From the human T2T-CHM13v2.0 reference genome, Homo sapiens, in NCBI RefSeq assembly GCF_009914755.1, contig NC_060934.1: a DNA stretch of 64,000 bases, one strand, 5' to 3'. Numbering within the stretch: position 1 is the stretch's first letter; each line of letters opens with the position of its first letter. Positions 4,808-6,195 of the stretch are shown one piece after another. The notes below the pieces were generated by a model, which was not told where the DNA came from, made no database searches, and saw nothing but the letters and a program-made list of their open reading frames with translations. The position numbers were made by a program, and so were the translations under genes.

Positions 4808-4930
4808 GGGTTGCCTAGCAACCAGGAGTTTCCAGCCTCTGTCTCTGGGGTGACAGGAGGCTTTGAGAGTACAGCAGCTGGGGTGGGAAGGGGAGGAGAG
4901 AAAGGGGATGAGGGTATGCACCCTGACCCT
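4808..4930. repeat. Inverted repeat arm A (123 bp, non-Alu), PSD intron 7
   Basis: Ungapped reverse complement of 6073-6195, 115/123 identical. Confidence 0.95.
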
Positions 4931-5115
4931 CCACCCATCACCCCTACCCAAGGTCCCTTTACCAGGCAGCTCTGGCCCTTGGCCATGCCCAGCCATCTTG
5001 GGAAGGGTGATGTCAGGACGGCTTGTGGGGGACAGAGGGGCTCAAAGGAGGCATCCTGGGGCCCTAACACGAACCCCGGAGAGTGGGGGCTGTCCTCCAA
5101 GGGGTCAACACCCAC

Positions 5116-5196
5116 CTGAGAGCTTGGTCCAGAGTCATGCCCGTGAAGACAAAGAACTTGAGGTACTCCCCAGCCACCAGTTTGCTGAAGTCATTG
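5116..5196 (-). CDS. PSD: PSD coding exon 7 ([27 protein letters not shown])
   Basis: cccacag acceptor, CAG|gtgggt donor; 81 nt, phase 2-2. Confidence 0.95.
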
Positions 5197-5349
5197 CTGT
5201 GGGCAGGGCAGAGAGACAGGTAGGGTCTCAAGGGGAAGTGCAGGGGGTCAGGTGGGGATTACCCAATGACCAGGGGACATTAGATGGAGAGCTGCCTTCA
5301 GGATGCATTCCCTCTGCCCCCATCCTCAGTCCCAGCCTAGTGGCTTTAC

Positions 5350-5544
5350 TTCTTGCCCAGGTGCCGGGCCACATCGGCCTTCCTGAAGCCATCTAGTCGG
5401 TACAGCCTCTTGGCCAGGCGCTGCGCAGCCTCCAGGTCCGCTTTCTGCCCATTGGACAAGGTGTCTGTGCTTCCCAGGGCCAGCCGCTCTGTGCTGTCCA
5501 GCTCTGAGTCTGAGTCGGACACCAGCTGGCTCAGGGGTGGTTCG
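5350..5544 (-). CDS. PSD: PSD coding exon 6 (SEPPLSQLVS...VARHLGK), start of Sec7
   Basis: ccggcag acceptor, GAA|gtaaag donor; 195 nt, phase 2-2; ORF 5346..5561. Confidence 0.95.
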
Positions 5545-6072
5545 CTGCCGGGGTAGAACACCAGCTCAGGCTGGGGCAGGGTCCTTAGGAGCCATCCAGA
5601 CCCTCCTTCTGCCTCCAGGCCCAGAAGATGGAGAAGGGGAGGGAGTGGAGGGACATGGGGAAAGCATTCTTCTTTTTTCCAGGGAAGGAGATTAGATTCT
5701 CTCCATCAGCCTACTCCATCATTACCACCTCTCTGTGGAAGTCCTGCCTCAAATCTAACCCACATCCGTCTTGCTGCTGTGGGAGTTCTGGCTGCTTCCT
5801 CAAGCTCCCAGGGGCCTACATTTGCTATTAGACATAGATTATCTGTTCCCACCCTGGCCCTACACAGAACATAGTCCTTTGTCTCTTAGACTATGGACAA
5901 AGCTGGAATAGATGGGCTACCACGGAGGAACTGTGGAGGGCCAGGGAAAGATTTGAAGGCAGCAGGGATACTGGTCCGAAGGCTTTCCCCCTCCTGCTTT
6001 TTAGGGAGAGGAACCTCTCCTTGGTGCTCCCCCTCTGCCCACACAGAAGCAGGCTCTGGAGTTAGGGGGTTA

Positions 6073-6195
6073 AGGGTCGGGGTGCATACCCTCATTCCCT
6101 TTCTTTCCTCCCCTTCCCACCCCAGCTGCTCTACTCGCAAAGCCACCTGTCAGCCCAGAGACAGAGGCCGGAAACTCCTGGTTGCTAGGCAACCC
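6073..6195. repeat. Inverted repeat arm B (123 bp, non-Alu), PSD intron 5
   Basis: Ungapped reverse complement of 4808-4930. Confidence 0.95.

What the first reader, a model, noticed from the sequence alone, without database searches (positions are those of the whole stretch)
4808..6195. Non-Alu 123-bp inverted repeat bracketing the frame-symmetric PSD exons 6-7: candidate RNA-duplex switch for skipping or circularisation
Seen: 4808-4930 and 6073-6195 are ungapped reverse complements with 8 mismatches (4834/6169, 4850/6153, 4858/6145, 4866/6137, 4872/6131, 4898/6105, 4907/6096, 4924/6079). I do not recognise the arm as any transposon. The 1142-nt loop holds exactly exons 6 and 7 (195+81=276 nt, both phase 2-2). 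Arm A ends 19 nt from the exon 8 acceptor, so it overlaps the expected branch-point window. Established: reverse-complementary intronic matches promote back-splicing and exon loop-out. Inference: pairing could yield an in-frame 92-aa deletion (exon 5 to exon 8 joins GGC AG|G GTG) that removes the N-terminal Sec7 helices, and/or a 276-nt circRNA.
Basis: partly seen in the sequence, partly recalled or inferred. Interest (0 to 1): 0.85.

Follow-up and report, generated by a model that had tools for sequence, protein, structure and literature searches.

The report
Unique inverted repeat bracketing PSD exons 6-7
Two 134-base stretches in the introns on either side of exons 6 and 7 of the human PSD gene are near-perfect reverse complements found nowhere else in the genome, so they could zip the pre-mRNA into a long duplex, but whether this changes splicing is untested.

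Summary
Arms 4803-4936 and 6067-6200 are 134 nt and 91% complementary. A search of the whole T2T genome finds only these two copies, so this is a locus-specific inverted duplication, not a transposon pair.

On the PSD pre-mRNA strand the arms give a -260.7 kcal/mol duplex and pair with p>0.9 at 119 of 134 positions. The loop holds exactly exons 6 and 7 (276 nt, in frame), and arm A covers the likely branch site of exon 8.

- **Back-splicing:** the geometry fits circularisation of exons 6-7.
- **Exon 5-8 skipping:** the model is weaker, because the duplex hides the branch site that this join needs.
- **Selection:** the mismatches give no sign of it. Of 4 transitions in the core, 1 is G.U on the transcript strand and 3 are G.U on the other strand.
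- **RFX site:** each arm ends in GTTGCCTAGCAAC, identical to a classical RFX1 probe core, which gives a DNA-level alternative.
- **Not available:** orthologues and RNA data.

Most likely this is a lineage-specific, largely neutral duplication with by-product dsRNA effects.

The parts
4803..4936 (-). Arm A, in PSD intron 7 (4789-5115). In the pre-mRNA it is the C/U-rich, later-transcribed arm. It ends 14 nt (core 4808: 19 nt) upstream of the exon 8 acceptor.
   Evidence: composition and C-runs
6067..6200 (-). Arm B, in PSD intron 5 (5545-6737). In the pre-mRNA it is the G-rich, first-transcribed arm (7 runs of 3 or more G). It lies 523 nt upstream of the exon 6 acceptor.
5350..5544 (-). PSD exon 6 (195 nt), inside the loop. 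It encodes the linker and the presumed first Sec7 helices (no Pfam match on its own).
   Evidence: hub table
5116..5196 (-). PSD exon 7 (81 nt), inside the loop. Matches Sec7 profile positions 60-84.
   Evidence: hub table
4676..4788 (-). PSD exon 8. Matches Sec7 profile positions 86-121. Its acceptor and polypyrimidine tract (4789-4802) abut arm A.
4810..4822 (+). GTTGCCTAGCAAC, an RFX X-box palindrome at the outer end of arm A. On the transcript strand it holds the candidate exon 8 branch adenosines (4811, 4812, 4816) and the AG 26 nt upstream of the acceptor.
6181..6193 (-). The same 13-mer at the outer end of arm B. It lies inside the RefSeq silencer feature 6113-6262.
   Evidence: hub table
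6218..6231 (+). X-box-like GTTGCCATGGCTTC (perfect left half, imperfect right half), 18 nt outside arm B and also inside the silencer feature.
   Evidence: read; consensus recalled

Best explanation
This is a locus-specific inverted duplication of about 125-134 bp within the PSD gene. One copy sits at the 3' end of intron 7 and the other in the middle of intron 5. It most likely arose by a replication template switch or fold-back that copied one site in reverse complement to the other. The imperfectly palindromic RFX X-box at the arms' outer edge may have nucleated the switch (inference).

Since then it seems to have drifted neutrally. Divergence is 6.5% in the core and 9% over 134 nt. With recalled primate substitution rates of about 1-2.2e-9 per site per year and no gene conversion, that suggests an origin some 15-45 million years ago, so probably primate-specific.

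In nascent PSD pre-mRNA the arms can form a 134-bp duplex that loops out exons 6-7 and buries the exon 8 branch site. The expected consequences are by-products rather than an evolved switch:
- A-to-I hyper-editing of the arms.
- Some back-splicing of exon 7 to exon 6, giving a 276-nt circle.
- Slowed or failed removal of intron 7.

Shown: the repeat, its uniqueness, the thermodynamics and the geometry. Inferred: origin, age, neutrality and all RNA outcomes.
For: - Only two copies exist in the 3.1-Gb genome, at 92% identity. The search with a 361-nt query at E<=10 also found no more than these two places.
- No gapped extension of similarity beyond the arms.
- Duplex energy is -260.7 kcal/mol on the transcript strand and -267.2 on the opposite strand.
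- The arms pair in both the MFE and the centroid structure of the 1461-nt fold.
- Pairing probability is >0.9 at 119 of 134 positions, and forcing arm A single-stranded costs 189.7 kcal/mol.
- There is no competing inverted repeat of 35 nt or more in 13 kb of PSD.
- Mismatches: of 12 in 134 nt, 2 are G.U on the transcript strand and 3 are G.U on the other strand. In the 123-nt core, 1 of 4 transitions is G.U on the transcript strand and 3 of 4 on the other. Two of these transitions are CpG>TpG in arm A. This is as expected without selection for RNA pairing.
- Template switching is described as creating inverted repeats in human DNA, with the classic form starting from a pre-existing near-perfect inverted repeat (PMC5453318, passages).
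- Inverted repeats of 30-40 nt suffice for exon circularisation from plasmids (PMC4201285, abstract).
- Conserved complementary pairs are enriched outside circRNAs and in A-to-I sites (PMC8052449, passages).
Against: - No orthologous sequence could be examined, so the age, the source arm and neutrality are untested. With only 12 mismatches the G.U argument is weak.
- The arm lies on a functional element (the exon 8 branch region) and carries a canonical RFX site, so part of it is surely constrained.
- A duplex this strong at a constitutive acceptor of a Sec7-coding exon might be expected to be deleterious, which argues either that it rarely forms in vivo or that it has been accommodated or used.
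- Known template-switch events in that paper are short and local. 134 nt copied over 1.1 kb is larger than the typical case.
Confidence: 0.55

Rival explanations
1. One reading: the arm pair is a functional RNA-duplex switch. When paired, it makes PSD produce an in-frame exon 5-exon 8 mRNA (92 aa shorter, Sec7 crippled) and/or a 276-nt exon 6-7 circRNA.
For: - Geometry and thermodynamics as above.
- There is no competing repeat in the gene.
- Both looped exons are in frame, and the joins are as stated.
- The circle would be stop-free in the native frame with one AUG.
- Looped-out exons show lower inclusion genome-wide (PMC8052449, figure legend passage).
- A Sec7-less EFA6A isoform has reported biological activity (PMC6522047 passage citing Sironi 2009), so a GEF-dead product need not be inert.
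Against: - The exon 5-exon 8 join needs the exon 8 branch site, which lies inside arm A at 4811-4816, so pairing should hinder that join rather than favour it.
- There is no excess of G.U over mismatch on the transcript strand.
- No PSD/EFA6A circRNA paper was found.
- PSD is absent from the main text and the 3 held supplement files of the PCCR catalogue paper, which hold only selected tables.
- The G-runs of arm B and the C/U tract of arm A are likely protein-binding or G-quadruplex sites that compete with pairing (inference).
Confidence: 0.2
2. The unit under selection is DNA, not RNA. Each arm is a copy of an RFX-bound intronic cis-regulatory module (silencer or enhancer) of PSD, and the RNA complementarity is a side effect of duplicating it in inverted orientation.
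For: - Both arms end in GTTGCCTAGCAAC, identical to the core of the PyEP probe used as an RFX1 EMSA competitor (PMC2859551, methods passage).
- These are the only 2 matches to the 1-nt-spacer X-box consensus in 64 kb, against 0.25 expected; 2 of 100 shuffles reach 2.
- A third X-box-like site lies 18 nt outside arm B. A 2-nt-spacer X-box lies at 12492-12505, near the PSD alternative first exons.
- The RefSeq silencer feature 6113-6262 covers arm B's X-box (hub table).
- EFA6A is described as a regulator of ciliogenesis (PMC12995699, abstract in listing). RFX factors control ciliary genes (recalled).
Against: - The X-box takes 13 of 134 nt, and nothing explains the other 120.
- The two X-boxes are one event (a duplication), so the window count is not independent evidence.
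- The exact 13-mer occurs 203 times in the genome, about twice the uniform expectation, so many copies are probably not functional.
- No binding data could be consulted.
- The only paper holding both EFA6A and RFX was not read beyond the listing.
Confidence: 0.15
3. The arms are two independent insertions, in opposite orientation, of one interspersed repeat family (MITE, MIR, LTR fragment and the like).
For: None found. The genome search is not sensitive to very old, diverged families and skips very common words (tool caveat).
Against: - Two copies at 92% identity would imply a young family with many similar copies, yet the genome holds only these two.
- The window holds no other match above chance.
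- The segment between the arms holds ancient Sec7 exons, so the pair cannot be the termini of one element.
Confidence: 0.03

Closest known systems
Intronic complementary sequences / reverse complementary matches that drive exon circularisation (ZKSCAN1, HIPK3 Alu pairs; Liang and Wilusz 2014, PMC4201285)
   Same: Inverted complementary stretches in the two introns flanking the exons. The arm length is well above the 30-40 nt reported as sufficient. The loop is short and no competing repeat lies nearby.
   Different: The arms are not Alu or any dispersed repeat, but a two-copy sequence unique to this gene. No back-splice product is documented. One arm overlaps the downstream acceptor's branch site.
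Pairs of conserved complementary regions (PCCRs) and exon loop-out (Kalmykova et al. 2021, PMC8052449)
   Same: Long-range intronic base pairing that loops out exons, with the expected links to lower inclusion, circRNAs and A-to-I editing.
   Different: PCCRs are defined by conservation across vertebrates and are mostly short. Conservation could not be tested here, and the arm divergence suggests a young origin. PSD was not found in what I could read of that paper.
Template-switch mutations that create inverted repeats and RNA hairpins (Loytynoja and Goldman 2017, PMC5453318; PMC8794818 and PMC10710096 seen in the listing only)
   Same: A reverse-complement copy of nearby sequence, with a near-palindrome at one edge that could seed the switch.
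   Different: The described events are mostly tens of bases with short spacers. Here 123-134 nt are copied across 1.1 kb that includes two exons.
EFA6As, the Sec7-less short isoform of EFA6A/PSD (Sironi et al. 2009, seen only as cited in PMC6522047)
   Same: A PSD product without GEF activity, as the proposed exon 6-7 deletion would be.
   Different: EFA6As is described as sharing only the C-terminal PH and coiled-coil region. It is not an internal in-frame deletion and is not linked to this repeat.

Membership tests
Intronic complementary sequences flanking a circularised or looped-out exon block | Reverse-complementary stretches in the upstream and the downstream intron of the exon block | tested here: met
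   Arm B lies in intron 5 and arm A in intron 7; 134 nt, 91%.
Intronic complementary sequences flanking a circularised or looped-out exon block | Across-exon pairing favoured over competing pairings | tested here: met
   p>0.9 at 119 of 134 positions. Forcing arm A single-stranded costs 189.7 kcal/mol. There is no other IR of 35 nt or more in 13 kb. This is equilibrium only; co-transcriptional kinetics and proteins are not modelled.
Intronic complementary sequences flanking a circularised or looped-out exon block | Back-splice or skipping junction observed in RNA, and dependent on the arms | not testable with these tools
   No RNA-seq data were available. Paper searches found no PSD/EFA6A circRNA.
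Interspersed repeat (transposon-derived) pair | Many dispersed copies of the arm in the genome | tested here: not met
   Two places only in 3.1 Gb, with the 134-nt query at E<=0.001 and with the 361-nt query at E<=10. No Dfam library was available.
Conserved long-range RNA structure (PCCR) | Both arms conserved in other vertebrates, with compensatory substitutions | not testable with these tools
   No vertebrate genome other than this one is held (one search says it has no relatives here). Within the pair, G.U versus mismatch shows no bias to the transcript strand.
RFX X-box binding site | Match to GTNRCC-N(0-3)-RGYAAC (consensus recalled) and to a tested RFX1 probe | tested here: met
   Exact matches at 4810-4822 and 6181-6193. 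The 13-mer equals the core of the PyEP probe in PMC2859551.
RFX X-box binding site | Occupancy by an RFX protein in cells | not testable with these tools
   No ChIP-seq data here.
Template-switch inverted duplication | Derived state absent from an outgroup; microhomology at the switch points | tested here: inconclusive
   No outgroup was available. At both ends 2 mismatches are followed by 3-4 matches, which may be microhomology or chance.

The most novel reading that the evidence does not exclude
The pair is a selected, primate-lineage RNA device in a neuronal Arf6 exchange factor. A 134-bp duplex buries the exon 8 branch site, which is at the same time an RFX X-box palindrome at the DNA level. 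Productive PSD splicing would then depend on dsRNA unwinding or editing (for example by DHX9 or ADAR). The paired state would divert transcripts into a 276-nt exon 6-7 circle that is stop-free in the native frame, with one AUG, and so open to rolling translation of the N-terminal Sec7 helices.
Probability: 0.1. Interest if true: 0.65.

Novelty: new member of a known kind. Interest (0 to 1): 0.35.

Why it matters
If the duplex forms in neurons, it would be a clean, non-Alu test case for how a single unique intronic complementarity affects back-splicing, branch-site access and A-to-I editing. It sits in a compact gene with no competing repeats. It could also be a lineage-specific modifier of EFA6A (Arf6 GEF) output. 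If it does nothing, it is still a tidy example of a sizeable inverted duplication, probably by template switching, tolerated right at a constitutive acceptor. The overlap of an RFX1-type site with a branch site is a small curiosity that bears on how DNA and RNA signals share sequence.

Tried and rejected
- **Rfam:** a scan of 4500-6500 gave only three sub-threshold hits (mir-207 25.5 bits against a gathering score of 88, LINC00901, uc_338), taken as chance.
- **Longer repeat:** sensitive gapped BLAST of 4600-5349 against 5545-7200 found nothing beyond the 134-nt arms, so there is no longer degraded repeat.
- **Transposon-pair reading:** rejected on copy number.
- **Mismatch-tolerant genome search:** It was not resent, since arm B itself differs by more than that in the stretch.
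- **Supplements:** the 3 held files of PMC8052449 contain no 'PSD'.
- **Paper searches:** EFA6A + circRNA gave 0 papers. circPSD / circ-PSD as whole words gave 1 listed paper with 0 occurrences in its main text. EFA6A + RFX gave 1 unrelated-looking preprint, not read.
- **Hub gene table:** it cannot show an exon-skipping isoform, because it lists only additional exons. I draw nothing from it on skipping.
- **A failed calculation:** the first pair-probability run returned zeros because the partition function was not rescaled. It was repeated correctly.

Full report
**1. The observation**

The window sequence shows the two arms as described. The repeat finder reports arms 4803-4936 and 6067-6200: 134 nt, 91% complementary, 1130 nt apart. 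Beyond the core, each end has two mismatches followed by 3 matches (outer) or 4 matches (inner), and then similarity stops. Sensitive gapped BLAST of 4600-5349 against 5545-7200 finds nothing more. This is the only inverted repeat of 35 nt or more in window 1-13000, which covers the part of PSD in the window. The many long inverted pairs elsewhere in the window lie beyond 19 kb.

**2. It is not a dispersed repeat**

The whole assembly (3.1 Gb, 24 contigs) was searched with arm A. That gave two places only, the arms themselves (100% and 92% identity, E 5.9e-62 and 1.1e-45). A 361-nt query around arm B at E<=10 again gave only these two.

The tool warns that it scores only the best candidates and skips very common words. 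An old, strongly diverged family could therefore be missed. But two members of such a family would not be 92% alike, and a young family would have left many similar copies. So the pair is a local, locus-specific inverted duplication. Rfam gives only sub-threshold matches.

**3. Anatomy relative to the gene (minus strand)**

- Arm B lies mid-intron 5, 523 nt upstream of the exon 6 acceptor.
- Arm A fills the 3' 41% of the 327-nt intron 7 and stops 14 nt (core: 19 nt) from the exon 8 acceptor.
- The loop holds exon 6 (195 nt), intron 6 (153 nt) and exon 7 (81 nt).
- From the hub's coding parts, the cumulative CDS length is 2 mod 3 at the ends of exons 5, 6 and 7, so the 276 nt are frame-neutral.
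- Exon 5 ends GGCAG|gtaagt and exon 8 begins GGTGTTT.
- In Pfam, exon 8 alone matches Sec7 positions 86-121 (E 5.3e-7) and exon 7 matches positions 60-84 (E 0.053, below cut-off). Exon 6 gives no Sec7 match on its own. Losing exons 6-7 would remove roughly the first 85 profile positions of the 183-position Sec7 model.

**4. Branch site**

In the last 150 nt of intron 7 the nearest AG upstream of the acceptor is 26 nt away. No yUnAy motif lies closer than 120 nt. By the usual AG-exclusion logic (established knowledge, recalled), the branch adenosine should lie at or just upstream of that AG. This points to the A residues at 4811, 4812 or 4816. All are inside arm A and inside the palindrome described in section 7.

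The exon 5-exon 8 join uses this same branch site, so a stable duplex should hinder that join rather than promote it. Back-splicing of the exon 7 donor to the exon 6 acceptor uses the intron 5 branch site, which is free.

**5. RNA thermodynamics**

- On the transcript strand the two arms give a duplex of -260.7 kcal/mol. On the opposite strand the value is -267.2.
- In a 1461-nt fold of 6230-4770 the arms pair in both the MFE (-736.9 kcal/mol) and the centroid structure.
- Pairing probability exceeds 0.9 at 119 of 134 positions, and forcing arm A single-stranded costs 189.7 kcal/mol.
- Each arm alone folds to only about -46 kcal/mol.

These are equilibrium figures. Arm B is made about 1.1-1.3 kb before arm A. 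It has seven runs of three or more G (possible G-quadruplex or hnRNP H/F sites, inference). Arm A is a long C/U tract (possible PTB/PCBP sites, inference). Whether the duplex forms in cells is therefore open.

**6. Signs of selection**

There are 12 mismatches in the 134-nt pair. Two are G.U on the transcript strand and three are G.U on the other strand. Among the four transitions in the core, one is G.U on the transcript and three are G.U on the other strand. Two transitions are CpG>TpG changes in arm A. This is what neutral decay would give, although the numbers are small.

With recalled primate substitution rates (about 1-2.2e-9 per site per year), 6.5-9% divergence between arms corresponds to roughly 15-45 million years if there has been no gene conversion. 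That predicts a primate-specific feature. No other vertebrate genome is held here, so this prediction, the identity of the source arm, and any covariation could not be tested.

**7. An unexpected DNA-level feature**

The outer end of each arm carries GTTGCCTAGCAAC (4810-4822 on +, 6181-6193 on -).

- These are the only two matches in 64 kb to the 1-nt-spacer X-box consensus, which I recalled. The expectation is 0.25, and 2 of 100 shuffles reach two matches.
- The 13-mer is letter for letter the core of the 'PyEP' oligonucleotide listed among the probes and cold competitors of an RFX1 EMSA (PMC2859551, methods passage).
- It occurs 203 times in the genome, about twice the roughly 92 expected from a uniform model (my arithmetic).
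- An X-box-like GTTGCCATGGCTTC lies 18 nt outside arm B. A 2-nt-spacer X-box lies at 12492-12505, close to the PSD alternative first exons.
- The hub's RefSeq silencer feature 6113-6262 covers arm B's X-box.
- EFA6A is described as a regulator of early ciliogenesis (abstract of PMC12995699 in the listing). RFX factors are the classical regulators of ciliary genes (recalled).

Two inferences follow, neither tested. (a) The arms may matter as DNA, as duplicated RFX sites. (b) A near-palindrome reads almost the same on both strands, so it is a natural seed for an inter-strand template switch. The classic mechanism is described as starting from a pre-existing near-perfect inverted repeat (PMC5453318, passage).

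**8. Literature**

- Short inverted repeats of 30-40 nt suffice for circularisation from plasmids (PMC4201285, abstract).
- In the PCCR catalogue, pairs looping out exons are depleted, looped-out exons were compared for inclusion, and pairs are enriched outside circRNAs and in A-to-I sites (PMC8052449, passages). 'PSD' occurs neither in its main text nor in the three supplement files held.
- No paper holds both EFA6A and circRNA. 'circPSD' as a whole word led to one listing with no occurrence in its main text.
- A Sec7-less short isoform, EFA6As, is known (PMC6522047, passage). PMC4246094 gave only general EFA6 family background.

**9. Verdict**

The repeat is real, unique and strongly pairing-competent. 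It sits in the textbook geometry for back-splicing of exons 6-7.

- **Best reading (0.55):** a lineage-specific inverted duplication, probably by template switching, largely neutral. Its by-product effects on the pre-mRNA would be editing, some circularisation and impaired intron 7 removal.
- **Evolved splicing switch (0.2) and duplicated RFX module (0.15):** neither is excluded, and neither excludes the best reading.
- **Transposon pair:** effectively excluded (0.03).

In kind, it is a new member of the known class of intronic complementary sequences. Its unusual points are the non-repeat origin, the overlap with a branch site and the RFX palindrome. A side calculation shows that a 276-nt exon 6-7 circle would be stop-free in the native frame, with one AUG.

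Noticed in passing
window 4810-4822 (+) and 6181-6193 (-): Both arms end in GTTGCCTAGCAAC, identical to the core of the PyEP RFX1 EMSA probe (PMC2859551). On the transcript strand of arm A the same bases hold the likely exon 8 branch adenosines.
   Followed up: partly
window 12492-12505 (-): A 2-nt-spacer X-box match, GTTGCCATAGTAAC, lies next to the PSD alternative first exons (12620-12685, 12838-12910). It is the only such match in the window (0.18 expected; 17 of 100 shuffles reach one).
   Followed up: no
window 6218-6231 (+): X-box-like GTTGCCATGGCTTC, 18 nt outside arm B and within the RefSeq silencer feature 6113-6262. Arm B's X-box and this site form a tandem pair.
   Followed up: no
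window 5116-5196 + 5350-5544 (-): A hypothetical exon 6-7 circle (276 nt) has no stop codon in the native frame over two turns and holds one in-frame AUG (junction codon AGC).
   Followed up: partly
window 6067-6200 and 4803-4936 (- strand RNA): Arm B RNA has seven runs of three or more G (possible G-quadruplex). Arm A RNA is 61% C+U, with seven runs of three or more C. Both could bind proteins that compete with duplex formation.
   Followed up: no
window 19134-19315 and 21286-21467: A 182-nt, 94% complementary inverted pair, 1970 nt apart, in CUEDC2 intron 1. The second arm lies beside stretches the hub lists as masked, so it may be an Alu-type pair.
   Followed up: no
window 4884-4949 (-): Weak Rfam match to mir-207 (25.5 bits against a gathering score of 88, E 0.063) over the inner end of arm A; taken as chance.
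   Followed up: no
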